Shown in pieces: positions 35,174-53,086 of a DNA stretch of 61,843 bases. Positions within the stretch are counted from its first letter, which is position 1. The number at the start of each line of letters is the position of its first letter. Origin of the DNA: a virus (taxonomy: Duplodnaviria > Caudoviricetes); IMG/VR virus record IMGVR_UViG_3300042360_000496, positions 1 to 61,843 of that record; one strand, written 5' to 3'. The notes under the pieces were generated by a model, which was not told the origin of the DNA, searched no databases, and saw nothing but the letters and a program-made list of their open reading frames with translations. The position numbers were made by a program, and so were the translations under genes.

Positions 35174-36107
35174 ACCATTTTACTATCCTTGGGCTTATGA
35201 GTGTTGGAAGAAACAACAACAAATACATTGGATTGTGGATGAAGTTGATCTTGGGCAAGACGTCCAGGACTGGGAAAATACCTTAAGCCCAAGTGAAAAA
35301 GAATTCCTAACACAAATCTTTAGATTCTTCACGCAAGCCGATATAGATGTTAACAACAACTATATGGAGAACTACAGTAGAATCTTTAAACCAACAGAAA
35401 TAAAGATGATGTTGTCTGCATTTTCCAATATGGAAACTGTTCACATTGATGCTTATGCCTTGTTGATAGAGACTGTTGGGATGCCAGAATCTGAGTATGA
35501 AGCTTTCTTAAATTACAAAGAAATGAGAGAAAAGCATGAGTATTTATCAAACTTCAACATGTCAAGCCCAAGGGAAATACTAAAGACTTTGGCTGCTTTT
35601 GGAGCTTTCACTGAAGGATTGCAACTATATGCTAGTTTTGCGATGCTACTAAATTTCCCTCGTTTTGGCAAAATGAAAGGAATGGGTCAGGTTGTAACAT
35701 GGTCTGTGAGAGATGAAAGTCTTCACTGTATTGGAATTATAAATCTCTTCCACACTTATGCAACTGAGACTGGAGCTTTAGATGATTCCCTTAAAAAAGA
35801 AATTGTTGAAATAGCAAAGCGAGTTGTTGAGTTAGAGGACAATTTCATCGACTTAGCATTCAAAGTTGGTGGAATCCGAGGGATGGAAGCTGATGATATC
35901 AAAGCATACATCAGATACGTTGCAGATTGGCGTTTGGAGCAGTTAAAAATGGAACCTATATATAATATAAAGCAACATCCGATACCATGGTTAAAGGAGA
36001 TTCTAAATGGCGTGGAGCATGCTAATTTCTTTGAAGTCACTGCAACGGAGTATTCCAAAGCAGCAACAAAAGGAGATTGGAAATCAGCTTGGGATAGTAT
36101 TAACTAA
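35142..36107 (+). CDS. nrdB: Ribonucleotide reductase beta subunit
   Basis: FFTQAD, E.VH..AY, EG..L..SF, RDESLH, NFFE. Confidence 0.96.
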   Translation: MNLQTQKTAFKPFYYPWAYECWKKQQQIHWIVDEVDLGQDVQDWENTLSPSEKEFLTQIFRFFTQADIDVNNNYMENYSRIFKPTEIKMMLSAFSNMETVHIDAYALLIETVGMPESEYEAFLNYKEMREKHEYLSNFNMSSPREILKTLAAFGAFTEGLQLYASFAMLLNFPRFGKMKGMGQVVTWSVRDESLHCIGIINLFHTYATETGALDDSLKKEIVEIAKRVVELEDNFIDLAFKVGGIRGMEADDIKAYIRYVADWRLEQLKMEPIYNIKQHPIPWLKEILNGVEHANFFEVTATEYSKAATKGDWKSAWDSIN

Positions 36108-36870
36108 CCCAACTTGGGTTGCTCGCACAAGCAACAACTGTCTTGACATCTGTATTCTCTGAGGTATAGACCCAGCTATCTAACTTTCTGTAGTAGCTGG
36201 GTTTTTTACCACTCATGTGAGCAAAGTCAGTTATCTTGTCTTTCCAAGCTCTTTTCCCAGCTTTTGTTTTATAACTAGCTAACTTAGCATTCTCTATGGA
36301 CGATACATTCTTTATCTTTGTCTTGCTGACTCTCTTCTTAATTGAGGCAAAATCTTTATCCATGTTAGGATTCCAACCACGACAAACTTTGTCAATGAGT
36401 TCATTAATAGAAGCTTTTGGATAAGTCTTATTCATCTTCATAAGTCTTCTTGTATAGGCTGCTAAGACAACCTCTTGATCAGCTAAATTACCATTTGCTA
36501 TTTCATATCTAAGAATTGTTTCTGCTGATCTATCGAGTGCCACCCTAACCTTCCATGGAATCTTGTACGGTGTTATCATTGGGCTGAACGAAGCAACTAT
36601 TGTCGGAGGCTCTTTAATTGGTGAAGGTTCTTGAGGGTCTTCTTGCTCCTGAACTATTTTGCCAGAGACAATATTAGTTTGTAACATTTCACCAATTGTC
36701 TCACCATCCTTAGCAGATATTTTTGGTGTTATCTTGAAAAAATTGAATACTAAAGACACAATTAGTATTACAAAAAGTATCTTTAAAATTCTGTGGTATT
36801 TTCTTTTTTGTTTATCCTCTATCTCTTGGACAATAGAACGCACGAGAAACTTTGTTTGATAATAATCCAT
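36100..36870 (-). CDS. Membrane-anchored hypothetical protein (moron, opposite strand)
   Basis: One TM helix near the N-terminus; followed on its 5' side by an AT-rich intergenic region. Confidence 0.7.
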   Translation of the reverse strand: MDYYQTKFLVRSIVQEIEDKQKRKYHRILKILFVILIVSLVFNFFKITPKISAKDGETIGEMLQTNIVSGKIVQEQEDPQEPSPIKEPPTIVASFSPMITPYKIPWKVRVALDRSAETILRYEIANGNLADQEVVLAAYTRRLMKMNKTYPKASINELIDKVCRGWNPNMDKDFASIKKRVSKTKIKNVSSIENAKLASYKTKAGKRAWKDKITDFAHMSGKKPSYYRKLDSWVYTSENTDVKTVVACASNPSWVS

Positions 36871-37024
36871 ATTTTTCTACATTTCTTTTTTATAGATAGT
36901 ACATGCCCTAAGACGATAAGTTAAAACTTTAAGTTCCTTAATTAAATTTAATAAAAAGACCAAGCCTTTTTCTCGAGAAAGAGAATAAAATTTTATTTGA
37001 ATCTAAGTAGAAATGGAGAAAAAG

Positions 37025-37369
37025 ATGAAACCATTGATGCTTCTTACCCAGAAGTACAACCGTCTCTGCAGGTTTTTCAACAAAAATTATATGCCTTCTT
37101 TTATCAAAGAAGAGCATGCAATTAAAAAGATTTTAGAACTGCAGGAATTAGTATCAGATCAACCACATATACAAGATCTATTTTTGTTAATTGTTGAGGG
37201 TGCTACAATGCCGATGCTGGTTGAACACTGGTTGAAAGTTAAACCAGAGGACAAAGATATCAAAGAAGAGAGTGTCAGAAAAAAGATAAATAATATCTTG
37301 GCTGACATTGCTTCGCGATTAAATCTAAGAATCGAAACTGGTATAATAATTCTAGAGGTAAAAGCATGA
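37025..37369 (+). CDS. Hypothetical protein leading the modification operon
   Basis: GAAATGGAGAA RBS; track start 37013 lies within the RBS. Confidence 0.65.
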   Translation: MKPLMLLTQKYNRLCRFFNKNYMPSFIKEEHAIKKILELQELVSDQPHIQDLFLLIVEGATMPMLVEHWLKVKPEDKDIKEESVRKKINNILADIASRLNLRIETGIIILEVKA

Positions 37370-38304
37370 CAGAATCAGTAACAGAAGCTACAAAACAACC
37401 TAGAAAAGTCAGAGAACCAAGACTTGATTTAGGACAAAAAATTAAAATGGATTTGTCTGGCTTTTGGAAATACTCTATAGATAGAGAAACCATAAGAATC
37501 AAAAAAGATGTCCTTAAACTACCAAAACCATTGACAGAGGATGAAGTATTTCTAAAAAATAAATTCTGTAATATTTTTAGAGAACATGACAGAACAACTA
37601 AATGGTTTAGAGAAAATATCAGAGATCCTTTAAAAGATAGTCCTGGAGTCTTATTCGCAACTGTTGCGTTTAGATGGTTTAACAGATGGCAGACTGGAGA
37701 GATTATCCAAGATCTACTTCTTGAACCACCAACAAGTTGGGAAACCTTTGAAACTACTATAAGATCAAGATTGATAGGTGTTAAACCAATTATCACTGGT
37801 TCTTATATGATCAAGACTCCGACTGGGCTTAACAAATCGGACGGTGTAATATCCAATATAAAAAACTTTTGGGGTGTAACAACTGAACCAAAGAGTCTAA
37901 AAGATATGCATACTTTCATAAAAGGGAAACCATTTATGGGCTCTTTTATGGCTTATGAAGTAGTTACAGATCTCCGTCATACATATCTCTGTAGAGAAGC
38001 AGAAGATATTAATACTTGGGCAGCAGCAGGCCCAGGAGCAGCTAGAGGATTAGCAAGAATTATTGGTAAACCTCTAGATTATTTTTCTCACTACTCACAT
38101 TTAGACCAAATAACAATGTGCTCATTGATGGAACAAATCTTACAGGATTCCATAACAAGCTGGCCAACAGAATGGTCTGATTGGGAAATGAGAGACGTGG
38201 AACACACTTTATGTGAATATGACAAATATTTAAGATGCCAATCTGGTCAAGGAAAAACAAAACAAAAATATGAGGGAGGGGTTTGTGAAGAAAATAATAG
38301 TTGA
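37366..38304 (+). CDS. 5-hydroxymethyluracil DNA kinase (aGPT-Pplase1/5-HMUDK family)
   Basis: KFCN.FRE.DRTT, FR.FN, G.F.AYEVV.DL, GPGA.RGL, R.VEH.LCE.DKY.R. Confidence 0.85.
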   Translation: MTESVTEATKQPRKVREPRLDLGQKIKMDLSGFWKYSIDRETIRIKKDVLKLPKPLTEDEVFLKNKFCNIFREHDRTTKWFRENIRDPLKDSPGVLFATVAFRWFNRWQTGEIIQDLLLEPPTSWETFETTIRSRLIGVKPIITGSYMIKTPTGLNKSDGVISNIKNFWGVTTEPKSLKDMHTFIKGKPFMGSFMAYEVVTDLRHTYLCREAEDINTWAAAGPGAARGLARIIGKPLDYFSHYSHLDQITMCSLMEQILQDSITSWPTEWSDWEMRDVEHTLCEYDKYLRCQSGQGKTKQKYEGGVCEENNS

Positions 38305-39283
38305 CTTGGATGACACAATTTGTTCAACCTTCAACAGAGATTTTGAAAATTCTGTTCCCAATCTAAGGTTAATAAATAAAATAAACAACCTTTTTTATCA
38401 AGACTGGGAAATAGTTATTCTAACAGCAAGAGGAAACTTATCCTGTAAAAATTTGGAAGAAAGGGAACAGAAATACAGAAAACAAATCGAAGTTTGGTTA
38501 AAGAAAAATGGTGTAAAATACACAAGACTATCTTTCGAGAAAGAGCTTGCTGTACACTACATTGACGATAAGTCTATTAGACCAGATGAATTTTGTGAGT
38601 TAGAAATTGAAAATTTAATTGGTTGGTCTGGTGCAACTATAGAAAAACATGGAGAAAAGGTTCTAAAAACTCACGAGAAGATACATTCCGAAGTTTCTTG
38701 GTACCAATTAGCAAAGAATTTTGATTTTAATGTTCCAAAAATATCTTCTGTTGTTGGAAAAACTCTAGAGATGGAGTATATCCATGGAAAAACTGGAGAT
38801 GTTTCTTCTAAAGAGTTGTTCGAAATTTGTGAAAAGTTTAAACTTATAAAACATTCTTCTCCAGACTTCGAAACATACTTGGAATATATCTCCAAACACT
38901 GTACACTAGATGTATTCACAGAGTTTGTTGAAAAATTGAAAAAGGATAGCCACACTTTTTTTAATTCCCAAAAGTCTTTTTGTCATGGTGATCTTTCGCT
39001 GGAAAACATAATAAAGTCAGAGATAAATTATAAGTTGTATCTTATTGACCCAATATATCTTCCAGCTGTCTATTCGTCTTGGCTTCTTGACATAAGTAAG
39101 AGTCTTTATTCATTAAAATTTCTTGGACAAGCAGAAAAATATGAAGAACTATTGGAACTTTCACCAAACAAATTGGATGTTTTAAAACTTGAGGCTACCC
39201 ACTGGATGAGAGTTTATAAGTATGCACCAACAGAAACAAAGCCCAGAATTTTGGAGGAGTTTAGACAATGTTTGACCAAATAG
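38285..39283 (+). CDS. HAD phosphatase fused to APH/choline-kinase-fold kinase
   Basis: N-terminal DLDDT, TARG, YIDDK; C-terminal HGDL..EN and LIDP; GTG start with GGAGG (track start 38270). Confidence 0.85.
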   Translation: MKKIIVDLDDTICSTFNRDFENSVPNLRLINKINNLFYQDWEIVILTARGNLSCKNLEEREQKYRKQIEVWLKKNGVKYTRLSFEKELAVHYIDDKSIRPDEFCELEIENLIGWSGATIEKHGEKVLKTHEKIHSEVSWYQLAKNFDFNVPKISSVVGKTLEMEYIHGKTGDVSSKELFEICEKFKLIKHSSPDFETYLEYISKHCTLDVFTEFVEKLKKDSHTFFNSQKSFCHGDLSLENIIKSEINYKLYLIDPIYLPAVYSSWLLDISKSLYSLKFLGQAEKYEELLELSPNKLDVLKLEATHWMRVYKYAPTETKPRILEEFRQCLTK

Positions 39284-39705
39284 AAAAGGCAAAAACTAAA
39301 GGTCTGAAAATTGGATTTACAGCTTCAACTTTTGATCTTCTTCATCCTGGACATATAGCTATGTTGGCAGAAGCAAAAGCCAATTGTCAATTCTTGGTTG
39401 TTGGATTGCTTACAGATCCAACTATCAGTCGTCCAGAAAAGGAAAAGCCTGTCCAAACTATGCTTGAAAGATATATACAAATTCAAGCTGTTAGATTTGT
39501 TGACATGGTTGTTCCATTCGAGACAGAAGAGGAATTGGAACAATTACTTCTGACAATAATGCCAGACATCCGATTTATAGGTGAAGAATATAAAAACACA
39601 AACCACACTGGCAGAGAAATAGAAGGAATAACAAATTATTACAATAAAAGAAAACACAAATTTAGTTCTACCGATTTAAGAGACAGACTGAGGAAAACAA
39701 AATGA
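39268..39705 (+). CDS. HxGH nucleotidyltransferase (TagD/RfaE-II cytidylyltransferase superfamily)
   Basis: STFDLLHPGH, ER...L/I.A...VD.V, R.H.FSST.LR. Confidence 0.9.
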   Translation: MFDQIEKAKTKGLKIGFTASTFDLLHPGHIAMLAEAKANCQFLVVGLLTDPTISRPEKEKPVQTMLERYIQIQAVRFVDMVVPFETEEELEQLLLTIMPDIRFIGEEYKNTNHTGREIEGITNYYNKRKHKFSSTDLRDRLRKTK

Positions 39706-41126
39706 AAACTTGCAAAAAAGACAAAATGAAAATTGCTTATGTATGTCACAAAGGAGACACATATGGTGGATTTGTTTCTCACACAGAGCATGCAATCCAT
39801 GGCTTGAAAAAAAGAGGGCACGATGTAGACTTCTTTTTTCTCTCCTATTCTGGTCCAAATGAAATGTTTGTTAGAAAAAAGATTGATACTCTTCACAAGG
39901 AAGGTGTAACAATAGAAGGTAAACATTTCAGAACGTTGGACAGAGGTATAGGGACAGGGTTGTATAATCATATACAACTTGGTTGGATCACACCAGTGAC
40001 TCCTTATAAAACTCTTCAGCAGAAGAAAATTCTAAAGGAAAAGCTTGAAACTTATGATGTTGTGATCTGGCATACACCATTTTGGTTTAAACAGAAACCA
40101 GTACTTTGCGACACAGATTGGCCAATGCTTCTTGATTTACAAAATCCTGTTAATGTTGCTTTTCATCATGATGCCAATATTAGAGACAATTCAGCTTGGA
40201 TGTTTTTTATCGACAAATATTTTGATAGATTAATAAATGTCCATCAAGCCAGCTACAACAGCTCAAGCGTCTTCGAAACACCAAGAACTTTGATTTTCAA
40301 TCCACAAATCATAAATAAGGTCGAAAAAGATTTTAATGGTGACAAAAAAGTTAAATTCTTTTCTCTCCAATACTGGAAAGGATCTAAACATGTTGACGAC
40401 TTGATTCGTGCAATTCCACATCTAAAGGAAGATATCTTGATAAGAGTTGCAGGAAATGGTCTAGATTATAGATATCTAAAATCGATTGATAAATGCCCAG
40501 AGGATTTTATTGGCAGCCCCAAAAGGGATCCTGATATTCTTGAGTCTAATATAGGTAGACCCATCTTCAATCTTGCCTTGGAAACAGGAAAATTAGAGGA
40601 CTTGAATTGGGTGACTGAACAAGAGAGGAATTCGATATTTGAAGATACAGATTTTTTTGTAGACACTGCGTGGTACAAAGTAAGTACCGAACTTGGAGAA
40701 CATTTCAGCAGAACTTTGGTGGAAGCTATGATACGTGGAATCGTTCCAATAGCTAGGAATCTTGGGCTTAGCAACAATCTGGAAGGGAATGGAGAAGTGT
40801 TTAAAGCTGGAGAAAACTATATTATGATTCCATATGATGCTACTCCAAAAGAATTTGCTGAAATACTTGATGGTGCTTCAAAAATTAGCTCGGGAGAATA
40901 CAAGAGAATACAAAATAATAATTTTGAACTTTTGAAACATTTTGACTTGGACTATGTTGTAGAACAATATGAGAAGGTCTTTAAAGGGGAGCCTTGTGGC
41001 TTCTATGGAAAATACGAAACTGGTGGTACAGAAATTCCAGATAAATTTTTGCAAAAAGCAGAAAAACAATGGTTTGGAACAGGTGATCACAGAACATTTA
41101 AATTTAAAAAGGAGAAAAATGACTAA
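39702..41126 (+). CDS. GT-B glycosyltransferase (GT4-like), candidate DNA glycosyltransferase
   Basis: MKIA..., GG...H.E....GL..RGHDV, K....LIRA, EHFSR..VEAM..G..P. Confidence 0.8.
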   Translation: MKTCKKDKMKIAYVCHKGDTYGGFVSHTEHAIHGLKKRGHDVDFFFLSYSGPNEMFVRKKIDTLHKEGVTIEGKHFRTLDRGIGTGLYNHIQLGWITPVTPYKTLQQKKILKEKLETYDVVIWHTPFWFKQKPVLCDTDWPMLLDLQNPVNVAFHHDANIRDNSAWMFFIDKYFDRLINVHQASYNSSSVFETPRTLIFNPQIINKVEKDFNGDKKVKFFSLQYWKGSKHVDDLIRAIPHLKEDILIRVAGNGLDYRYLKSIDKCPEDFIGSPKRDPDILESNIGRPIFNLALETGKLEDLNWVTEQERNSIFEDTDFFVDTAWYKVSTELGEHFSRTLVEAMIRGIVPIARNLGLSNNLEGNGEVFKAGENYIMIPYDATPKEFAEILDGASKISSGEYKRIQNNNFELLKHFDLDYVVEQYEKVFKGEPCGFYGKYETGGTEIPDKFLQKAEKQWFGTGDHRTFKFKKEKND

Positions 41127-41643
41127 ACCAACAATTACACAGATTCTAAAGCTTCTAGACAAACCAGCACTTGTCAAGTGGGCAAATAAGCTTGGGCTTG
41201 AAGGAACCTCTCTAGACTCTTTCTACGAAAAGAAAAGAGAAGAAGGAATATCTCTCCATGCCCAAATAGAACGATATGTGAAGAGTGGTGTTAGAATGAA
41301 GGATCCAGCTCATCAAGAAAGGATTGAGAAATTCTTTCAGACGAGAAGAGTGGTTGCTACCGAAAGAGAAATAGAGACGGAATGGTTCACTGGAAGAACT
41401 GACGTTGTATTTTACCAAGATGATGATCAATATGTTGGGGACTTCAAGTCTTCAGATGGGCTTTACTTTGAAAATAAGCTACAACTAGCTGCATATCAGC
41501 TTGCTTATCCTCAAGCAAAGATCTGCGTCATACATATACCACTGTTCGTTGTAGACACTATAAAGGAGGATCTAAGACCTTATCAGGACATTGTTAAGTT
41601 GCTTTCTAAAGTCTGGCAAATAAAGGAGGGGATAATTAAATGA
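41119..41643 (+). CDS. PD-(D/E)xK nuclease-like protein
   Basis: T.IL..LDKPAL..WA, G...H, GR.D, DFK, Q..AY. Confidence 0.7.
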   Translation: MTKPTITQILKLLDKPALVKWANKLGLEGTSLDSFYEKKREEGISLHAQIERYVKSGVRMKDPAHQERIEKFFQTRRVVATEREIETEWFTGRTDVVFYQDDDQYVGDFKSSDGLYFENKLQLAAYQLAYPQAKICVIHIPLFVVDTIKEDLRPYQDIVKLLSKVWQIKEGIIK

Positions 41644-41933
41644 AACTTGAAAGTCTAGCAAAGGCAAATCTACTTAGCAGCAAATTACAGATAGCTGAAG
41701 AAGAATTAAAAAATCTTGAAAAATTCTTAAAAACCTATGAACCATTAGCACCTGAAGAAAAGGAAAATGTCCGGATGAAACTCTTCCAATCTACGTCAGG
41801 AAAAGACGTGATGCTGCTGGCCTTCAGTCTTAGATTAGAAGACCCAGAGATAGTTCTTCAGTTATTACAAATTATTAAATCAAGAAAAGAATCACAAATA
41901 GCACAGTTTAAATTGGAGATTGAAAGTCTATGA
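41640..41933 (+). CDS. Hypothetical protein
   Basis: Coupled ORF. Confidence 0.6.
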   Translation: MKLESLAKANLLSSKLQIAEEELKNLEKFLKTYEPLAPEEKENVRMKLFQSTSGKDVMLLAFSLRLEDPEIVLQLLQIIKSRKESQIAQFKLEIESL

Positions 41934-42949
41934 AAGTTATAAAAGTTAGAAACGTCAATGACGCATTCATTATGGGTCTGAACTACCTCCAGAGAGAAGG
42001 TGTAGAAAGAGATTCAAGAAATGGAAAAGTTCTGGTTGCACCAGAACCTGTTTGCACAGTCTATCTACAGCCCAAAGAGAGGGTATTATTTAACATTGTT
42101 AGAGATGCTAATCCATTTTTCCACCTCTATGAAAGTATATGGATGCTAGCTGGTAGACGTGATGTACAAAGTTTAACAAACTTTGTTGCAAGAATGGAAG
42201 AGTTTTCAGATGATGGGACAACCTTTCATGCTGCCTATGGTTACAGATGGAGGAATCAATTTAAAATACAGGACAACTCTCTAGCAGATTTTGTAGATGA
42301 TACTTCTTTAGATACAAGTGATCAAATTTCTAAAATTATTGATATTCTAAAGAACAATAAAGATGATCGTAGAGCTGTCCTGCAGATATGGGATGCTCAT
42401 CTGGATCTTGGAAAACAATCAAAAGATATTCCCTGCAATTTAACTGTCCACTTTCAAGTTACAGCAGAAAATAAACTTGACATGACTGTCTTTAATCGAT
42501 CAAATGATATTATCTGGGGATGTTATGGAGCCAATGCTGTCCATTTCAGCTTTCTGCAAGAGTATGTAGCATATAAAACTTCTTACGAAATTGGCAGATA
42601 TTATCAGATCTCTGACAACTATCATGCCTATCTTAAGACTCTAGAGAAGGTTAAAGACGAAAAAACAATTTCAGATCCTTATTCTGGACCATCTGCTCCA
42701 AGAGTAGTTGGTGTTGATTTTTCAACTGATGAATGTTTAAAGTTCATCAGAGAGGTGAGACCAGAAAGTATGTATTCAAACTTCAATTTCAATTCTGTGT
42801 TTCTTAGAGAAGTAGCTCTTCCAATGACACTCAGCTATTATCACTATAAAAAAGGAGACAAAAGATTGGCTCAAGACACTCTTTTGAAGATGATAGCTGG
42901 TGTTGACTGGAAAATAGCTGCTCTAGAATGGTTAGGGAGGAGAAAATAA
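41930..42949 (+). CDS. Thymidylate synthase homologue, probable dUMP hydroxymethylase
   Basis: RDANPFFHL.E, catalytic DIPCN, RSND..WG..GAN (Asn indicates dUMP specificity), H.Y; co-occurs with a 5-hmU DNA kinase. Confidence 0.8.
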   Translation: MKVIKVRNVNDAFIMGLNYLQREGVERDSRNGKVLVAPEPVCTVYLQPKERVLFNIVRDANPFFHLYESIWMLAGRRDVQSLTNFVARMEEFSDDGTTFHAAYGYRWRNQFKIQDNSLADFVDDTSLDTSDQISKIIDILKNNKDDRRAVLQIWDAHLDLGKQSKDIPCNLTVHFQVTAENKLDMTVFNRSNDIIWGCYGANAVHFSFLQEYVAYKTSYEIGRYYQISDNYHAYLKTLEKVKDEKTISDPYSGPSAPRVVGVDFSTDECLKFIREVRPESMYSNFNFNSVFLREVALPMTLSYYHYKKGDKRLAQDTLLKMIAGVDWKIAALEWLGRRK

Positions 42950-42973
42950 AATAAAATTAATAAGGTTATTTTG

Positions 42974-42992
42974 CTAAGATATTAGTTATGAT
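42974..42992 (+). promoter_or_regulatory. CTAA-N4-TTAG palindrome plus -10 box (TATGAT)
   Basis: ctaagatattag-t-tatgat upstream of ORF 43033. Confidence 0.55.
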
Positions 42993-43032
42993 TCTTATAG
43001 GTGACTAAAACCTATAAGAAATGGAGAATAAA

Positions 43033-43581
43033 ATGCAAACAGCACAATTAGTAGATCTAGAGCAGTTTAGAGGAAATATTTCTCTGAATGTTACTCAAAT
43101 GAACAGTCAAGTTCGTCACATGAAGAACAGAGAAATGGATTGGGAGGTGTTTCTACCAACCAAAGGAAAGAATTTACAAAGAGGGTTTGTTTGGACTGTT
43201 GGTCAAAAAAGAGAACTGATAGAATCAATTCTTCTTGGGAGGCAGATTCCAAACTTCTATTTCATAAATTCTTTTGACACTGTAAAAAACAAAGACATAT
43301 TGATCGTCATAGACGGAAAACAAAGGCTCTCAACAATCTTTGACTTTTTGGACGATAAATTCACAATGTCATTTACAGGTTGGTTGGATGATTATGAATT
43401 TCTCTTCTCCGAGCTTCCACTAGAATATCAAAGAGCAATAACTGGTTTTTGGCTGAACTATCACATTGTCAATGAAGACATGGATAAGAGAATAACAGAT
43501 AAAGAAAAGATACAATGGTTCAAGTTTATAAATTTCGCAGGTACACAACAAGATAAAACACATATGGAGGAATTAAATTGA
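43033..43581 (+). CDS. DUF262 (ParB/Srx-like) domain protein
   Basis: QR..VW, LIESIL.G..IP, IDGKQRL. Confidence 0.85.
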   Translation: MQTAQLVDLEQFRGNISLNVTQMNSQVRHMKNREMDWEVFLPTKGKNLQRGFVWTVGQKRELIESILLGRQIPNFYFINSFDTVKNKDILIVIDGKQRLSTIFDFLDDKFTMSFTGWLDDYEFLFSELPLEYQRAITGFWLNYHIVNEDMDKRITDKEKIQWFKFINFAGTQQDKTHMEELN

Positions 43582-44027
43582 TTAAACAATTACTAATAAT
43601 CTCACTAATTACATCAAGTTGTTTTGGTGCAGATTTAAAAATGAATGTAGAGACCGATGAATTTACAAATGTGATAAATAAGCACTGTAGATACATAGAA
43701 GTTGACCCAAGAAGGCAATGGACTATGTATGAGATATTAAAATTTACAAAAACAAACTTCTCTTGGGGAGAATCAAACAAGTATCCAGAAAGACAAAACA
43801 CAGAAGATAGAAAGTTGAATCTTCTGTGCGAAGAAACTGGTTACAAATCTGAATTAAAAGAGATAAACTTTAAAAGCAGAGCCTCTAGTAGACACTTTGA
43901 AGAGTCAACATTTGAACTTACAAAAAAGGATCAAGAAGAAATTACAAAATGTCTAAATCTAAAAATTAGATATGGTTATGTTGTTAGAGAATTAGGAAAC
44001 ACAAAGTGCTTGGAGGAATTAAATTGA
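43578..44027 (+). CDS. Secreted hypothetical protein
   Basis: Signal-peptide-like N-terminus; flanked by 17-bp direct repeats. Confidence 0.6.
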   Translation: MIKQLLIISLITSSCFGADLKMNVETDEFTNVINKHCRYIEVDPRRQWTMYEILKFTKTNFSWGESNKYPERQNTEDRKLNLLCEETGYKSELKEINFKSRASSRHFEESTFELTKKDQEEITKCLNLKIRYGYVVRELGNTKCLEELN

Positions 44028-44560
44028 CAACAAATTACCAAATAAAAAGAACAAGAGAAGCAGCTGACGTTAAAAGGTTTCACACCTTTCCATCCATTAA
44101 AGAGCAAACTGTTGGACAGCATTCATTCAATATGTTAACTATGCTGTTCCAATTTGTCAAGGAACCGAGTTTAAATCTGATAAAGGCTATAACTTATCAT
44201 GACTTTGCAGAAAGATGGGTTGGAGACATTCCAGCAACTGCTAAGTGGGGAAATGAAGAGTGGGGAAATCTAACAGAGTCCATTGAAGAATCTGTTAGAT
44301 TAAAACTCGGATTCATTTCTGGTGAATTGACCGAAGATGAAAAGAACATTCTAAGTTTTCTAGACACCTTAGAGCTGTTCTATTGGGCTTTGGAAGAAGC
44401 CGAATTAGGAAACAAAAATGGGTACTTCCTTGCCAAGAAAGTAAACAAGATTGTCTTAGAAAAATATGCAAAAACTAGGTTACAAACTACCATGAGCAGC
44501 TTATTATTTAGAATAGATTTACAACACCAAAGAACAGAAGATGGAGATGCATTCAATTGA
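44024..44560 (+). CDS. HD-domain 5'-deoxynucleotidase-like protein (YfbR family)
   Basis: V.RFH, TV..HS, HD.AE...GDIP, D.LE. Confidence 0.8.
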   Translation: MTTNYQIKRTREAADVKRFHTFPSIKEQTVGQHSFNMLTMLFQFVKEPSLNLIKAITYHDFAERWVGDIPATAKWGNEEWGNLTESIEESVRLKLGFISGELTEDEKNILSFLDTLELFYWALEEAELGNKNGYFLAKKVNKIVLEKYAKTRLQTTMSSLLFRIDLQHQRTEDGDAFN

Positions 44561-45111
44561 ACATATACGACTCATTCGACGCGATGATTGATTTAGAAAC
44601 CTATGGGAAAGCTCCAGGGTGCGGAATCCAGCAGATCGGTTTAGTCTTCTTTAATAGGGATGAACTAATAGATATACAACCTTATGATTGTCACCAATGG
44701 TTCATCGACAGACAGTCTAGTACTGACCTTGGGCTTAAAGAAGATTCAGAAACTTTAAACTGGTGGAAGAAACAAAGTGTTGAAGCCCAAGAAGGGTTCA
44801 ATAGACCTGGAATCTCAATTACAAAGGCTCTGCGAGAGTTTGCTGAACTTGAAGAATGGCAAAATGTTAGGTGTGTTTGGTCTCATGGAGCATCCTTTGA
44901 CATACCTATCATAGGGTGGGCTCTTAGGGAGGCTTTAATAAAGGCTCCTTGGAAATACAGCTCTATAAGAGATACAAGGACAATATTTGAGATAAGCCCC
45001 CCCGACGACATAGAAAATAAACTCAAACACTCAGCTCTACAAGATTCTATAACACAAGTTAAGGAAGTCCAAAACAGTTTTAAAAAACTAAAGGAGAAAT
45101 TAAATGTCTAA
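44557..45111 (+). CDS. DEDDh 3'-5' exonuclease (Rv2179c-like)
   Basis: MIDLET, W..GA.FD, RD.RT, H.AL.D. Confidence 0.85.
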   Translation: MNIYDSFDAMIDLETYGKAPGCGIQQIGLVFFNRDELIDIQPYDCHQWFIDRQSSTDLGLKEDSETLNWWKKQSVEAQEGFNRPGISITKALREFAELEEWQNVRCVWSHGASFDIPIIGWALREALIKAPWKYSSIRDTRTIFEISPPDDIENKLKHSALQDSITQVKEVQNSFKKLKEKLNV

Positions 45112-45619
45112 AACAATTGAAACTATTTTACAAGAAGATATTGATGGATTGAAAGAAGCAAACAAACAATATGGAGGGAGTTGGATTAAGCGTGGAGGGG
45201 TTGGAGCCTTCATGATGCTTGCTCGAAAATGGGATAGAATTGAAGAAAAGATGAACTCTTCAAAATCAAACAGTGTTATAGACATAATTGAACAAGACAC
45301 TCGAGCAGAAGGAATAATAGACGATATTAGGGATTTAAGAAGATATTTAATGCTGGTGGAGGCATACAACATTGGTGGTTCTGACTATCTAAACTGCCTA
45401 GAAAGAATATCTTTGTCAAAAGAATTTTGCTCAAGTCTAATGTTTGACACTCTTCTAGGGATTTGGTACACCATAGAAAGTGAATGTAAAGATTGTGGTT
45501 GGGACATCTTTAAAATTAAAAGTTCTTACAAAACGGAACACTTGAGAAGTCTATTGGTTCAAATAGAACTTCTTTTCTCAGCTCTTGGAATCGACCCAAA
45601 ACATAGGGATAACAAATGA
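45104..45619 (+). CDS. Nucleotide-modification-associated alpha-helical protein, putative dNTP pyrophosphatase
   Basis: YG.SW..RGG.GAFMMLARKWDR.E and D.I.DL..YL..VE pattern, as in hypermodifying phages. Confidence 0.55.
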   Translation: MSKTIETILQEDIDGLKEANKQYGGSWIKRGGVGAFMMLARKWDRIEEKMNSSKSNSVIDIIEQDTRAEGIIDDIRDLRRYLMLVEAYNIGGSDYLNCLERISLSKEFCSSLMFDTLLGIWYTIESECKDCGWDIFKIKSSYKTEHLRSLLVQIELLFSALGIDPKHRDNK

Positions 45620-49080: not shown

Positions 49081-49509
49081 ATGATAAACACACTAGAAAA
49101 AGTTAGAGAATTTGCCCAAGCTTTCACACCAAATCAGTGTGGATTCATAACCTACAATTCGCCAACCAAACAGATCGTTGCTCTTCGTTTACAACTACTA
49201 ATTGAAGAAGTCGGGGAATTAGCCCATGGTCTAGCAAAAGATGATCCAATGGAGATCCTGGATGCTTTATCGGATATTCAGTATGTTCTCGATGGGACTT
49301 ACCTAGCTCTTGGACTTGACAGATTTAAAGAGGCAGCTTTTATGGAGGTCCATAGATCTAACATGAGTAAGTTGGGGAGTGATGGTAAGCCCATAATAAA
49401 CGGAGCTGGAAGAGTGGTGAAGAGCGAAAATTATCGGGAGCCAAATTTACCAAAAGTTGTTAATGATATTCTATTAAATGGCTTAACAGGAGAAACAATA
49501 AATGGATGA
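49081..49509 (+). CDS. MazG-like NTP pyrophosphohydrolase (dUTPase-like)
   Basis: L..EE..EL, DAL.D..YV..G, EVH.SNMSK, G.V.K. Confidence 0.88.
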   Translation: MINTLEKVREFAQAFTPNQCGFITYNSPTKQIVALRLQLLIEEVGELAHGLAKDDPMEILDALSDIQYVLDGTYLALGLDRFKEAAFMEVHRSNMSKLGSDGKPIINGAGRVVKSENYREPNLPKVVNDILLNGLTGETING

Positions 49510-52177: not shown

Positions 52178-53086
52178 TTATGCAACGGTGATGCCGTAGT
52201 ATTGCCCTTGGTTACGCTCAAGCGTTTGACGGTCGGTGGTGGAGAATGCCGATGGGAATACGATAGTTTCTGAGTTATACCCATCGTAATACCACTGACT
52301 GTCACCGCGTTGACCAATAAAAAGTTGGTTCAGGGTGATCCTTCCACCCGTTCCATTATTGCCACCGTTTGTCCGAATGTTTGATTCTGTCGCAGTCGTG
52401 GTTAAGCTCACAACATAAGACTGTCCTATTGTTGGCAAAAAGCCTGTCTGCACTACTGGAACCCCTGCGTCTGGAATGTATCCCAATGAGGCATTTGGGG
52501 TTGGCGGAAAGAATCCAGTAAAGCTGCTGAATATTCCCCTTGGTACGGAACCGCTGCCAGTCCCAATAGAATAGCGAACAGTTGGTGCTTGTGTTACGTC
52601 ATTTAGCACAGATGACAAGGTAAGCTGAGAAAGTGGCAGGGATACACCACTGAAAGACGTATTTGACCCGTTAAACCTGATAGCGGGTTTGCCGTTGGCA
52701 ATATTAATCACCCCTGCATTCACAATGTGCGGCTGCGATCCTGCCGTGGTCTGCGTGGCATTGCGCCCGTTGCCAGATTGGTCATACCAAGTGGTAACAA
52801 AGCCGTTGCCAGCACCACAATGAGCAAGCAAAGCAACAGTGTCTAAGTCACCACTTGTAGTAAAGCCAATATCAGCCTCAGCATTATCACTCGAACGTCT
52901 AACCCTGATAGCATTGCCAGTGTATGCATTTCTTAGTTTCCGCAATGAGTAAGCAGCCGATGAGCTAACACTTAAGCGGTCTAGAATGCCTATAAAGATT
53001 GGTGAATTTAGAGAATTTAGAGAATTTCTTCTCTTCTTCCTGATGTAATAGAGGACAGCACGCCAAGTTTTATTATTTTTAAACAA
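52178..53086 (-). CDS. Concanavalin A/LamG-like (arabinofuranosidase-B catalytic-like) fibre protein
   Basis: AAYSLRKL..AY.G.AIRVRR.SD..E.DIGF, V..WYDQSGNG...Q, LE.NQ..YY. Confidence 0.75.
   Translation of the reverse strand: MFKNNKTWRAVLYYIRKKRRNSLNSLNSPIFIGILDRLSVSSSAAYSLRKLRNAYTGNAIRVRRSSDNAEADIGFTTSGDLDTVALLAHCGAGNGFVTTWYDQSGNGRNATQTTAGSQPHIVNAGVINIANGKPAIRFNGSNTSFSGVSLPLSQLTLSSVLNDVTQAPTVRYSIGTGSGSVPRGIFSSFTGFFPPTPNASLGYIPDAGVPVVQTGFLPTIGQSYVVSLTTTATESNIRTNGGNNGTGGRITLNQLFIGQRGDSQWYYDGYNSETIVFPSAFSTTDRQTLERNQGQYYGITVA

What the first reader, a model, noticed from the sequence alone, without database searches (positions are those of the whole stretch)
37366..42949. Candidate new thymidine hypermodification pathway: 5-hmdU kinase coupled to sugar/polyol activation and a glycosyltransferase
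Seen: one translationally coupled run encoding a 5-hmU DNA kinase-family protein, a HAD+kinase fusion, an HxGH nucleotidyltransferase, a GT-B glycosyltransferase and a thymidylate synthase homologue with the dUMP-type Asn (RSND..WG..GAN). Known: in M6/YuA/ViI/phiW-14-type phages, hmdU is incorporated into DNA, phosphorylated by this kinase family and then substituted by an amino acid:DNA transferase (aGPT-Pplase2), sometimes with PLP or radical-SAM tailoring. I recognise none of those downstream enzymes here. Inference: the phage makes its own NDP-sugar or CDP-polyol and attaches it to 5-(phospho)methyl-dU, giving a glyco(phospho)thymidine. This would be an anti-restriction/anti-CRISPR coat that I cannot match to a characterised pathway.
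Basis: partly seen in the sequence, partly recalled or inferred. Interest (0 to 1): 0.93.

Follow-up and report, generated by a model that had tools for sequence, protein, structure and literature searches.

The report
Phage cassette for sugar-coated hydroxymethyluracil DNA
An uncultured phage related to Pseudomonas phage PaMx11 has swapped the usual amino-acid decoration of its thymine substitute for a sugar-making and sugar-attaching gene set, so its DNA probably carries a sugar-bearing thymine that has not yet been shown in any phage.

Summary
The gene run is real (37013-42949, eight + strand ORFs overlapping by 4-35 nt). One assignment is wrong. The 312-aa "kinase" matches only the helical domain family PF18723. 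It is the orthologue of PaMx11 gp50, not of the validated P-loop kinase gp49. The 99%-complete genome has no small P-loop kinase and no amino acid:DNA transferase, so a 5-phosphomethyl-dU step is not supported.

The thymidylate synthase homologue has the dUMP hydroxymethylase signature. The HAD/kinase fusion plus cytidylyltransferase-like enzyme is a widespread phage sugar-nucleotide module. In all 35 related loci the two sit together. They lie beside three different DNA glycosyltransferase families. A preprint showed a trio of this architecture makes heptosyl-5hmC. The module is also homologous to the phage UDP-arabinose enzymes.

The GT4-like transferase belongs to a virus-only family. Of 80 loci, 62 sit beside a TET/JBP dioxygenase. 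Another 16 sit beside the helical protein, 14 of them with a dUMP hydroxymethylase. None has both. In one lineage the transferase and the helical protein are fused.

Best reading (0.6): direct O-glycosylation of 5-hmdU in DNA, probably with heptose. This is a new variant of a known kind and needs mass spectrometry.

The parts
37013..37369 (+). 118-aa ORF of unknown function; first gene of the coupled run
   Evidence: No Pfam or PHROG hit. Overlaps the next ORF by 4 nt. Not conserved in related loci.
37366..38304 (+). HEL: stand-alone helical protein of family PF18723 (HMUDK_hel). Orthologue of PaMx11 gp50, M6 gp55 and phiW-14 gp72. Not a kinase.
   Evidence: PF18723 at E 7.4e-40 and phrog_2396 at E 3.5e-58. 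43.6% identical to PaMx11 gp50. No Walker A. Invariant F-x-N-x-x-R-x-x-D-R, GPG and E-x-x-K-Y motifs. Fused to the GT in L008.
38270..39283 (+). HADK: HAD phosphatase (res ~5-116) fused to an APH/choline-kinase-like kinase (res ~118-337). Predicted sugar-phosphate 1-kinase and distal phosphatase.
   Evidence: PDB 1xpj E 1.4e-19, choline kinase 4r77 E 0.13. TIGR01689 E 1e-14. hhalign to Serratia phage LC53 AfhF-like, prob 98.8%, and to the AfhE-like kinase part, prob 92.3%. Catalytic motifs invariant.
39268..39705 (+). NT: 145-aa HxGH nucleotidyltransferase (CTP_transf_like). Predicted sugar-1-phosphate nucleotidyltransferase.
   Evidence: PF01467 E 2.9e-11, phrog_7878 E 5.2e-37. TIGR02199 rfaE_dom_II E 2.7e-23, TagD E 2.7e-13. 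PDB ECT 3elb E 5.5e-20. Adjacent to HADK in 35 of 35 loci.
39702..41126 (+). GT: GT4-like GT-B Leloir glycosyltransferase. Predicted 5-hmU DNA glycosyltransferase.
   Evidence: PF00534 E 5.8e-8. Model pLDDT 81.3, pTM 0.84. Foldseek HepE, PimA, BshA, MshA, WaaG, and T4 alpha-GT at E 1.5e-9. The family context is TET/JBP or HEL+TS.
41119..41643 (+). PD-(D/E)XK / Cas4-like exonuclease-like ORF. The ORF is open from 40969; the likely start is the ATG at 41119.
   Evidence: phrog_298 exonuclease E 4.6e-10; Cas_Cas4 E 0.0093, below the cut-off. The ATG at 41119 overlaps the GT stop by 8 nt. Not conserved in related loci.
41640..41933 (+). 97-aa ORF of unknown function
   Evidence: No hits. 4-nt overlaps on both sides.
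41930..42949 (+). Thymidylate synthase homologue; predicted dUMP hydroxymethylase (makes 5-hmdUMP)
   Evidence: PF00303 E 1.4e-24, phrog_5131 E 3.5e-115. 46% identical to PaMx11 gp51. Asp at the L143 position, Asp169 kept, Asn at the N177 position. The criteria are quoted in PMC13326640.
43021..43581 (+). DUF262 / GmrSD N-terminal (ParB-like) domain protein; role unknown
   Evidence: PF03235 E 1.2e-15. Carries a DGKQR motif. Not conserved in related loci.
44006..44560 (+). HD-domain YfbR-like 5'-deoxynucleotidase homologue (PaMx11 gp52-like). Candidate for keeping dTMP out of the pool.
   Evidence: PF12917 E 1.8e-7. 43% identical to PaMx11 gp52. Present near the TS in related loci.
49081..49509 (+). 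MazG-like pyrophosphohydrolase; candidate dTTP/dUTP pool sanitiser
   Evidence: PF01503 PRA-PH E 6e-8. The role is inferred by analogy with the dTTPase/dUTPase named in PMC13458397.

Best explanation
The phage replaces thymidine by 5-hydroxymethyl-dU before replication. The thymidylate synthase homologue makes 5-hmdUMP, and the HD and MazG-like enzymes probably trim the dT pool. After replication the phage O-glycosylates the hydroxymethyl group directly.

The sugar donor is made by the phage. The kinase domain of the HAD/kinase fusion phosphorylates C1 of a host sugar phosphate. The HAD domain removes the distal phosphate. The HxGH nucleotidyltransferase turns the sugar-1-phosphate into an NDP-sugar. 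The sugar is most likely a heptose from host heptose-7-phosphate. A pentose or a hexose is not excluded.

The GT4-like transferase moves the sugar onto 5-hmU in DNA. The helical protein (PF18723) acts as its partner for reading or binding hmU-DNA. No phosphorylation of hmU and no amino-acid transfer is involved. The product would be a base-J-like 5-(glycosyloxymethyl)uracil that shields the genome from nucleases.

Shown: domain identities, synteny, co-occurrence and fusions. Inferred: every enzymatic step, the sugar, the acceptor and the role of the helical protein.
For: (1) The scaffold is PaMx11-like. PolA is 53% identical, Dda 45%, TS 46% and HEL 43%. The slot that in PaMx11 holds AADT, FAD lyase, acetyltransferase and P-loop kinase holds HADK, NT and GT here.

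(2) The TS has Asp at the L143 position, keeps Asp169 and has Asn at the N177 position. So do all 15 TS homologues found next to GT+HEL elsewhere.

(3) HADK and NT lie together in 35 of 35 loci with a full-length HADK. Their neighbours include a T4 AGT-family DNA alpha-glucosyltransferase (PF11440, E 6.9e-15), a TAGT-like GT (PF20691, E 6.9e-7; next to a TET/JBP in L017) and this GT.

(4) A HAD/APH bifunctional enzyme + cytidylyltransferase + GT-B trio was needed for heptosyl- and di-heptosyl-5hmC in E. coli (bioRxiv 10.1101/2023.12.21.572611). The best curated match of NT is heptose-1-P adenylyltransferase.

(5) The HAD and kinase domains are homologous to the AfhF/AfhE-type enzymes of an arabinosyl-DNA phage (PMC13326640).

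(6) The GT is a GT4-type Leloir fold. T4 alpha-GT is among its matches and there is no TagF-type hit among the chains listed.

(7) In 80 viral loci of the GT family, 62 have an adjacent TET/JBP (61 of 61 measured lie within 1.5 kb). Another 16 have HEL, 14 of them with TS. None has both.

(8) GT and HEL are one 837-aa protein in L008/L009.

(9) HEL also occurs fused to the P-loop 5-hmdU kinase (an Atlas cluster of 76 members), to an N6/N4 DNA methylase, to MazG and to a chromodomain.

(10) There is no AADT, no P-loop kinase and no TET in the window. There is no AADT in five related records (control 3 of 3).
Against: There is no chemistry. The phage is uncultured, and nothing shows what its DNA contains.

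The acceptor of the GT is inferred from context only. The 62 TET-linked members work without HEL, so HEL is not a general requirement of this GT family.

The function of HEL is unknown. M6 gp55 was dispensable for the kinase + AADT reaction in lysates (PMC8989533). My HEL model is poor (pLDDT 60.7), and no PDB match has E<=0.001.

The best PDB sequence match of NT is ethanolamine-phosphate cytidylyltransferase (E 5.5e-20), so a CDP-alcohol product is not excluded by sequence.

Neither a heptose-7-P nor an arabinose-5-P isomerase is encoded, so the precursor must come from an unknown host.

I could not test whether the preprint's GT53 belongs to this GT family, because supplements are closed.

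Many loci are near-copies (62 different of 82 rows), so the counts overstate independent events.
Confidence: 0.6

Rival explanations
1. 5-hmdU in DNA is first phosphorylated, here by the APH-like domain of HADK standing in for the missing P-loop kinase. HEL, or the GT, then displaces the phosphate, or esterifies it, with a sugar or polyol from an NDP/CDP donor. The product is a glyco(phospho)thymidine.
For: HEL belongs to the family that accompanies, or is fused to, the 5-hmdU DNA kinase. It has a mostly conserved Cys-Glu-x-x-Lys-Tyr motif, with Cys in 6 of 7 aligned sequences. This recalls the catalytic Cys of the clade 2 transferases (PMC8989533, PMC13458397). NT resembles phospho-alcohol cytidylyltransferases.
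Against: No P-loop kinase is encoded. HADK is fused to a phosphatase, is homologous to small-molecule sugar kinases and occurs unchanged in 5hmC loci with AGT- or TAGT-type transferases that need no DNA kinase. The GT is a Leloir GT4 fold, not a TagF-type phosphotransferase. HEL gives no sequence match to the solved clade 2 transferases.
Confidence: 0.08
2. The sugar genes do not act on DNA. They glycosylate a host envelope polymer, a virion protein or a small molecule, acting as an auxiliary metabolic or superinfection-exclusion module. The phage DNA carries plain 5-hmdU.
For: GT4 enzymes and heptose or CDP-alcohol pathways normally serve LPS, teichoic acid and capsule synthesis. The top structural matches are such enzymes. 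The preprint notes that about 65% of its GT-containing contigs had no base-modification gene nearby.
Against: GT and HEL are fused in one lineage. 78 of 80 GT-family loci lie beside an enzyme that makes hydroxymethylpyrimidine in DNA or nucleotides, either TET/JBP or HEL (14 of the 16 HEL loci also have the TS). The cassette sits inside the nucleotide and replication module and is translationally coupled to the TS. No relative of the GT was found in 185,579 species genomes, although that pattern-seeded search has limited sensitivity.
Confidence: 0.12
3. Same direct glycosylation of 5-hmU, but HEL is unrelated to the GT step. HEL would be a general partner of the dUMP hydroxymethylase / hmU lifestyle. 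For example it might protect hmU-DNA from host glycosylases or help choose which sites stay unmodified. The fusion with the GT would then be incidental.
For: TS and this helical family are reported as constant partners in M6-like phages and in pelagiphages that apparently lack other hypermodification genes (PMC9599517). HEL is also found fused to MazG and to a DNA methylase. TET-linked GTs lack HEL.
Against: The GT-HEL fusion and the kinase-HEL fusions both join HEL to enzymes that act on the 5-CH2OH group. All 16 HEL-context loci in the GT set have HEL within 9 kb of the GT.
Confidence: 0.15

Closest known systems
'Contig 53' subclass III biosynthetic gene cluster: heptosyl- and di-heptosyl-5hmC (bioRxiv 10.1101/2023.12.21.572611; passages and section 9 read)
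   Same: A HAD-like/APH-like bifunctional enzyme, a cytidylyltransferase (CTP_transf) and a GT-B DNA glycosyltransferase. All three were required for sugar transfer to a 5-hydroxymethylpyrimidine in DNA. The precursor comes from the host metabolome.
   Different: There the acceptor is 5hmC, made after replication by a C5-methyltransferase and a TET-like dioxygenase. Here the acceptor is predicted to be 5-hmU, made before replication by a dUMP hydroxymethylase. A PF18723 helical protein is part of this cassette. I could not test whether GT53 is in the same GT family. L017 shows a TET + TAGT-like GT + HADK + NT layout that may be the closer match.
PaMx11 / M6 thymidine hypermodification clusters: 5-HMUDK + amino acid:DNA transferase + tailoring enzymes (PMC8989533; PMC11472151; PMC13458397)
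   Same: Same phage scaffold and gene order (RNR, then TS homologue, HD protein and PolA). Same dUMP hydroxymethylase type. Same helical protein (gp50 / gp55).
   Different: No P-loop kinase, no AADT, and no FAD, acetyltransferase, PLP or radical-SAM enzymes. Sugar activation genes and a GT stand in their place, so no 5-phosphomethyl-dU intermediate is expected.
Arabinosyl-5-hydroxycytosine pathway of RB69, DLP3, HY126 and LC53: AfhE kinase/NT, AfhF HAD phosphatase, GT4-like arabinosyltransferases (PMC13326640)
   Same: A 1xpj-like HAD phosphatase and an APH-like sugar-phosphate 1-kinase, homologous by hhalign. GT4-like DNA glycosyltransferases with the same PDB neighbours (PimA, BshA, MshA, sucrose-phosphate synthase). 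A TS homologue supplies the acceptor base.
   Different: There the kinase is fused to a MurU-like NTP transferase and the phosphatase stands alone. Here the kinase is fused to the phosphatase and the NT is of the HxGH class. There is no arabinose-5-P isomerase here. There the acceptor is 5-hydroxycytosine, made by a D169N TS variant. Here Asp169 and Asn177 are kept.
Base J of kinetoplastids: JBP thymine dioxygenase + JGT glucosyltransferase (as described in PMC13229309; further details recalled)
   Same: The predicted product class: an O-glycoside of 5-hydroxymethyluracil in DNA.
   Different: Base J is made after replication by a dioxygenase and a GT-A-type JGT using UDP-glucose. Here hmU is made as a nucleotide. 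The GT is GT-B/GT4, so an alpha linkage would be expected if it is retaining. The sugar is probably not glucose.
TS + aG/PT-PPlase1 partner genes of HTVC023P-type pelagiphages, sometimes with a 5'-deoxynucleotidase and a glucosyltransferase (PMC9599517, passages read)
   Same: Co-location of the TS homologue, the clade 1 helical protein, an HD-type deoxynucleotidase and a glycosyltransferase near PolA. No kinase or AADT is mentioned.
   Different: That report gives annotation only and proposes no pathway or product. No HAD/kinase + NT sugar module was reported in the passages I read.

Membership tests
5-hmdU DNA kinase (5-HMUDK) | P-loop (Walker A) kinase domain, as in PaMx11 gp49, M6 gp54 and ViI gp67 | tested here: not met
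   The 312-aa protein has no Walker A. Whole-window Walker A sites lie only in the terminase, two helicase-type proteins and one likely chance site. PF18748 is absent (the control found 2 of 3 known phages). tblastn with gp49 gave a best E of 1.4.
5-hmdU DNA kinase (5-HMUDK) | Associated helical domain PF18723 | tested here: met
   PF18723 at E 7.4e-40 over profile positions 6-276 of 281.
AADT-type thymidine hypermodification pathway | Amino acid:DNA transferase (aGPT-Pplase2, PF18724) | tested here: not met
   No match at E<=1 in the window, and none in five related records. The same search found it in 3 of 3 known phages. tblastn with gp46 gave a best E of 0.41.
AADT-type thymidine hypermodification pathway | dUMP hydroxymethylase supplying 5-hmdU | tested here: met
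   Sequence signature only: Asp at L143, Asp169 and Asn177. 46% identical to PaMx11 gp51. Activity was not tested.
HAD/APH + cytidylyltransferase + GT-B DNA glycosylation cluster (contig 53 type) | Bifunctional HAD-like / APH-like enzyme | tested here: met
HAD/APH + cytidylyltransferase + GT-B DNA glycosylation cluster (contig 53 type) | CTP_transf_like nucleotidyltransferase next to it | tested here: met
   Adjacent in 35 of 35 loci.
HAD/APH + cytidylyltransferase + GT-B DNA glycosylation cluster (contig 53 type) | GT-B fold DNA glycosyltransferase | tested here: inconclusive
   The GT-B/GT4 fold is met. Action on DNA is inferred from context only.
HAD/APH + cytidylyltransferase + GT-B DNA glycosylation cluster (contig 53 type) | 5hmC acceptor made by a C5-methyltransferase + TET/JBP | tested here: not met
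   No TET/JBP in the window. The TS has the dUMP-type Asn.
HAD/APH + cytidylyltransferase + GT-B DNA glycosylation cluster (contig 53 type) | Heptose as the transferred sugar | not testable with these tools
   Only indirect: the best curated match of NT is rfaE domain II.
AfhE/AfhF UDP-arabinofuranose pathway | 1xpj-like HAD phosphatase and APH-like sugar-phosphate kinase | tested here: met
   hhalign prob 98.8% (E 5.6e-17) and 92.3% (E 5.4e-7) to the LC53 proteins.
AfhE/AfhF UDP-arabinofuranose pathway | MurU-like NTP transferase domain and arabinose-5-phosphate isomerase | tested here: not met
   NT is PF01467, not NTP_transferase. There is no SIS domain in the window (the control rang in 14 of 14 genomes). 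No LC53 isomerase relative was found in any held locus.
GT4-type retaining Leloir glycosyltransferases | Two Rossmann-like domains, an N-terminal Gly-Gly motif and a C-terminal x-x7-E motif, with nearest folds in GT4 | tested here: met
   Invariant G22-G23 and an H334-F-x-R...E-A-M motif. Foldseek top hits are HepE, PimA, BshA, MshA and WaaG at E 1e-12 to 1e-10. Motif names are recalled. Stereochemistry was not tested.

The most novel reading that the evidence does not exclude
The virion DNA carries a natural base not yet described: 5-(heptosyloxymethyl)uracil. The nucleoside should be about 450 u, the thymine-side counterpart of the 449 u heptosyl-5hmC.

The PF18723 helical family (aGPT-Pplase clade 1 / 'kinase helical domain') would be a portable reader of 5-hydroxymethyluracil in DNA. 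It would recruit whichever enzyme is to act on the CH2OH group: a kinase, a glycosyltransferase or a methylase. That would explain its constant partnership with dUMP hydroxymethylases and its fusion to chromodomains in fungi.
Probability: 0.3. Interest if true: 0.8.

Novelty: new variant of a known kind. Interest (0 to 1): 0.62.

Why it matters
Sugar-decorated cytosines are well documented in phages. Thymine-side hypermodifications characterised so far in M6/ViI-type phages run through a DNA kinase and an amino-acid transferase.

This cassette predicts a second, kinase-free branch from 5-hmdU, a phage analogue of base J. It is built from a sugar-nucleotide module already shown to work on 5hmC. 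It would add a new DNA base and a new enzyme (a 5-hmU DNA glycosyltransferase) useful for labelling or mapping 5hmU. It also gives the first functional handle on the widespread helical protein that accompanies every dUMP hydroxymethylase of this type. The exclusive pairing of the GT family with either TET/JBP or HEL + TS shows how one transferase family is plugged into post-replicative and pre-replicative routes.

The test is simple, because 5-hmdU DNA substrates and the co-expression platform already exist.

Tried and rejected
1. DNA-level relatives. Megablast of 37000-43600 against 50,697 phage records found nothing. tblastn with the GT found nothing there either.

2. The search for related loci with the single HADK sequence found nothing. 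The alignment query worked.

3. A GT-family scan of genome contigs found no relatives. The search is pattern-seeded, so this is weak evidence of absence.

4. Sequence profiles of HEL and GT against the PDB gave no meaningful hit for HEL (best E 0.34, a chance-looking GPG match) and only marginal BshA hits for the GT.

5. The HEL structure model was poor (pLDDT 60.7). Foldseek found 0 of 54 matches with E<=0.001. HhH DNA glycosylases (MjOgg, AlkA, EndoIII, AGOG) appear among the weak hits at TM 0.25-0.37. This is not evidence.

6. Complex prediction of GT + HEL returned 'no answer' (score 0.00, controls not folded). It is not used for or against binding.

7. The promoter and terminator scan of 35800-45200 gave counts at chance level (31 against 28.7 expected; 4 against 4.8).

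8. A CDP-polyol / TagF-type reading was considered. I rejected it as the main model because no TagF-type fold appears among the chains listed for the GT model and Pfam assigns Glycos_transf_1.

9. An arabinose reading was considered, by analogy with the Afh pathway. I ranked it below heptose because no isomerase is encoded and NT is closest to rfaE domain II. It is not excluded.

10. The right arm of the genome (53237-59970) holds a primase-helicase, an HTH protein and unknowns, but no modification enzyme.

11. Searches for prior reports of this cassette or of glycosylated 5hmU in phages found the related work cited here and no report of the product. Subscription journals and supplements were not searchable. 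Iyer et al. 2013 (PMC3763556) is not held.

Full report
WHAT IS THERE. The window is a whole IMG/VR virus record of 61,843 bp, estimated 99% complete. G+C is about 37%. Its replication module resembles the PaMx11-like siphoviruses of Pseudomonas. PolA is 53% identical, the Dda-like helicase 45%, and the Pam3 gp32-34-like proteins, the RNR subunits and an HD protein lie in the same order.

From 37013 to 42949 eight + strand ORFs overlap their neighbours by 4, 35, 16, 4, 8, 4 and 4 nt. The 'translationally coupled run' is therefore real. A promoter and terminator scan of the region was at chance level and adds nothing.

THE 'KINASE' IS NOT A KINASE. The 312-aa protein (37366-38304) matches only PF18723, '5-hmdU DNA kinase, helical domain' (E 7.4e-40). 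In PaMx11 the validated kinase is gp49, a P-loop protein (Table 1 of PMC8989533; Pfam). The next gene, gp50, is the PF18723 protein. The window's protein is 43.6% identical to gp50 over its full length and shows nothing to gp49 (best E 1.4).

The phiW-14 homologue gp72 is annotated as similar to M6 ORF055. In lysate reconstitution M6 gp55 could be left out. A Stenotrophomonas phage record calls its homologue 'alpha-glutamyl/putrescinyl thymine pyrophosphorylase'. A pelagiphage study calls the constant partner of this TS type 'aG/PT-PPlase1'. That PF18723 equals that clade 1 name is my inference.

Walker A motifs in the whole window occur only in the terminase, the Dda-like helicase, the primase-helicase and one likely chance site. 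PF18748 and PF18724 (the amino acid:DNA transferase) give no match at E<=1. As controls, PF18724 was found in 3 of 3 known thymidine-hypermodifying phages. PF18748 was found in 2 of 3, with only one above the cut-off. Pfam scans of 40 ORFs between 28306 and 59970 found no PLP or radical-SAM enzyme.

THE BASE. The TS homologue (41930-42949) is 46% identical to PaMx11 gp51. Aligned to solved thymidylate synthases, it has Asp where E. coli ThyA has Leu143. It keeps Asp169 and keeps the Asn of position 177. According to PMC13326640 (passages), Asn177 marks dUMP use. An acidic residue at 143 marks hydroxymethylation. D169N marks the 5-hydroxy-dCMP synthases. The enzyme is therefore predicted to make 5-hmdUMP. 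This rests on a sequence signature, not an assay. An HD 5'-deoxynucleotidase-like protein and a MazG-like protein lie downstream, as in related hmU phages.

THE SUGAR MODULE. The 337-aa protein has an N-terminal HAD phosphatase with all catalytic motifs invariant. Its C-terminal kinase is of the APH/choline-kinase class, with the V-x-K, HGDxxxxN and IDP motifs invariant. The HAD part matches PDB 1xpj (E 1.4e-19) and TIGR01689. The next protein is a 145-aa HxGH nucleotidyltransferase. Its best curated match is the heptose-1-phosphate adenylyltransferase domain of RfaE (E 2.7e-23), ahead of TagD. Its best PDB sequence match is ethanolamine-phosphate cytidylyltransferase.

A profile search found at least 424 protein clusters of the fusion. 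A scan of viral contigs with the fusion's alignment returned 62 loci. Of these, 35 have a full-length fusion, and all 35 have the nucleotidyltransferase beside it. Ten of the 35 also have this GT and HEL. The other 25 do not, and 20 of those have a TS-family gene.

In 19 non-redundant neighbourhoods, six (the window included) are of the window's type. The others carry a T4 AGT-family DNA alpha-glucosyltransferase (PF11440, E 6.9e-15), a TAGT-like transferase (PF20691, E 6.9e-7) or a weak Glyco_trans_1_2 match. They also carry a C5 DNA methylase-like protein, a dCMP deaminase and a short TS with Asp at the 177 position, meaning dCMP use. One locus (L017) reads TET/JBP, TAGT-like GT, fusion, NT. 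The pair is thus a donor-supply module shared by several DNA glycosylation systems.

Two published systems explain the module. A preprint (10.1101/2023.12.21.572611; passages and section 9 read) reports that 'contig 53' encodes a HAD-like/APH-like bifunctional enzyme, a cytidylyltransferase and a GT-B DNA glycosyltransferase. All three were essential for mono- and di-heptosyl-5hmC in E. coli.

PMC13326640 (passages) describes UDP-arabinofuranose synthesis in RB69-type phages. An APH-like kinase domain acts on arabinose-5-P (AfhE type), and a 1xpj-like HAD phosphatase removes the 5-phosphate (AfhF type). Profile comparison links the window's fusion to both proteins of Serratia phage LC53, a phage named in that paper (98.8% and 92.3% probability). 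The window has no SIS isomerase. No held locus has a relative of the LC53 isomerase. The sugar phosphate must therefore come from the host.

THE TRANSFERASE AND ITS PARTNER. The 474-aa protein is Glycos_transf_1. Its model (pLDDT 81.3) matches GT4 Leloir enzymes best: HepE, PimA, BshA, MshA, WaaG and sucrose-phosphate synthase. T4 alpha-glucosyltransferase bound to DNA is also among the matches (E 1.5e-9).

The family was not found in 50,697 phage records or in a pattern-seeded scan of 185,579 species genomes. In viral contigs 101 relatives were found and 80 were kept. Of those 80, 62 have a TET/JBP dioxygenase (PF12851, E 1.8e-24 for a representative), and 61 of the 61 measured lie within 1.5 kb of the GT. 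Another 16 have HEL, 14 of them with a TS. None has both and two have neither. All 15 TS homologues in that set (14 beside HEL and one in a locus without HEL) carry the same dUMP hydroxymethylase signature as the window.

On a quick maximum-likelihood tree the window lies in a HEL-context clade of ten (support 96). A second HEL-context clade is sister to a single TET clade (support 99). Many rows are near-copies (62 different of 82), so the labels are not independent.

In L008/L009 the GT and HEL are one 837-aa protein (the same protein was recovered as P0121). HEL also occurs fused to an N6/N4 DNA methylase and to MazG. In the ESM Atlas it occurs fused to the P-loop kinase (a cluster of 76 members) and to a chromodomain in Basidiomycota (a cluster of 139 members).

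HOW IT MOST LIKELY WORKS. 5-hmdU is incorporated in place of T. The phage makes an NDP-sugar from a host sugar phosphate. The GT transfers the sugar to the hydroxymethyl group in DNA, with HEL as a DNA-side partner. I put this at 0.6.

Heptose is my first guess for the sugar, from the contig 53 precedent and the RfaE-like NT. I would not put it above about 0.5 given glycosylation. A non-DNA target gets 0.12. A version in which HEL is unrelated to the GT step gets 0.15.

The weak points are these. There is no chemistry. The function of HEL is unknown: the model is poor and has no significant structural match. The TET-linked GTs do without HEL. NT resembles phospho-alcohol cytidylyltransferases.

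NOVELTY. Glycosylated hydroxymethyl- or hydroxy-cytosines, and the sugar module itself, are known. The association of GT-B enzymes with thymidylate synthase homologues has been noted in bulk (28% of GT-B hits). So has the co-location of the TS, the clade 1 helical protein, a deoxynucleotidase and a glucosyltransferase in pelagiphages. The authors of PMC13229309 expect sugar-modified 5hmU downstream of phage thymine dioxygenases.

In seven literature searches I found no demonstration of a glycosylated 5-hmU in phage DNA. I also found no description of this kinase-free, HEL-linked cassette. Supplements and subscription journals were not visible. I therefore file it as a new variant of a known kind.

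Paper supplements were closed.

Noticed in passing
window 52178-53086 (-): 302-aa protein with a partial match to the alpha-L-arabinofuranosidase B catalytic domain (PF09206, E 3.6e-9, profile positions 13-93 of 315). It may be a tail or lysis glycosidase. Any link to the sugar chemistry of the DNA was not examined.
   Followed up: no
window 43021-43581 (+): 186-aa protein consisting only of the GmrSD N-terminal / DUF262 ParB-like domain (DGKQR motif), with no nuclease domain, directly after the TS gene. It is not conserved in related loci. ParB-like proteins are reported as regulators in phage thymine-dioxygenase clusters (PMC13229309). A decoy against GmrSD-type restriction is another possibility.
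   Followed up: partly
window 43578-44027 (+): 149-aa ORF with an N-terminal hydrophobic stretch ending in Ser-Ser-Cys, which looks like a lipoprotein signal. It sits in the middle of the nucleotide-metabolism genes and has no family hit.
   Followed up: no
L007:9417-10385 (same contig as L015): A radical SAM + SPASM protein (PF04055 E 9.5e-16, PF13186 E 2.5e-11) lies between the GT and HEL in this 110-kb phage record. This hints at further tailoring of the sugar or the base in that lineage.
   Followed up: no
L028:11532-12941, L032:13632-14858 and relatives (13 non-redundant loci): A second cassette type: the HAD/kinase fusion + NT with a T4 AGT-like DNA alpha-glucosyltransferase, a C5 DNA methylase-like protein, a dCMP deaminase and a short TS with Asp at the 177 position. 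It predicts sugar-modified 5hmC with a phage-made donor in T4-like uncultured phages.
   Followed up: partly
L076:11507-12169 (Agathobaculum phage AB434P3, cultured): The TS homologue is annotated as deoxyuridylate hydroxymethyltransferase, but it has Asp at the position that marks dCMP use. It sits next to a HAD/kinase fusion and NT. This cultured gut phage could be used to test the sugar module.
   Followed up: partly
proteins P0122, P0123; Atlas clusters: The PF18723 helical domain also occurs fused to MazG + PF18722, to an N6/N4 DNA methylase, and, in Basidiomycota, to a chromodomain (a cluster of 139 members).
   Followed up: partly
L089:8294-9004 and the second HEL-context GT clade (L087-L091, L098, L107, L110): These loci have GT + HEL + dUMP-type TS but no HAD/kinase fusion. 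An FkbM-type methyltransferase (PF05050, E 3e-9) lies between HEL and the GT. They may use a host NDP-sugar and a methylated product.
   Followed up: no
window 41119-41643 (+): A PD-(D/E)XK / Cas4-like exonuclease-like gene is embedded in the cassette between the GT and the TS. It is absent from related loci. It could be a nuclease that spares modified DNA.
   Followed up: no
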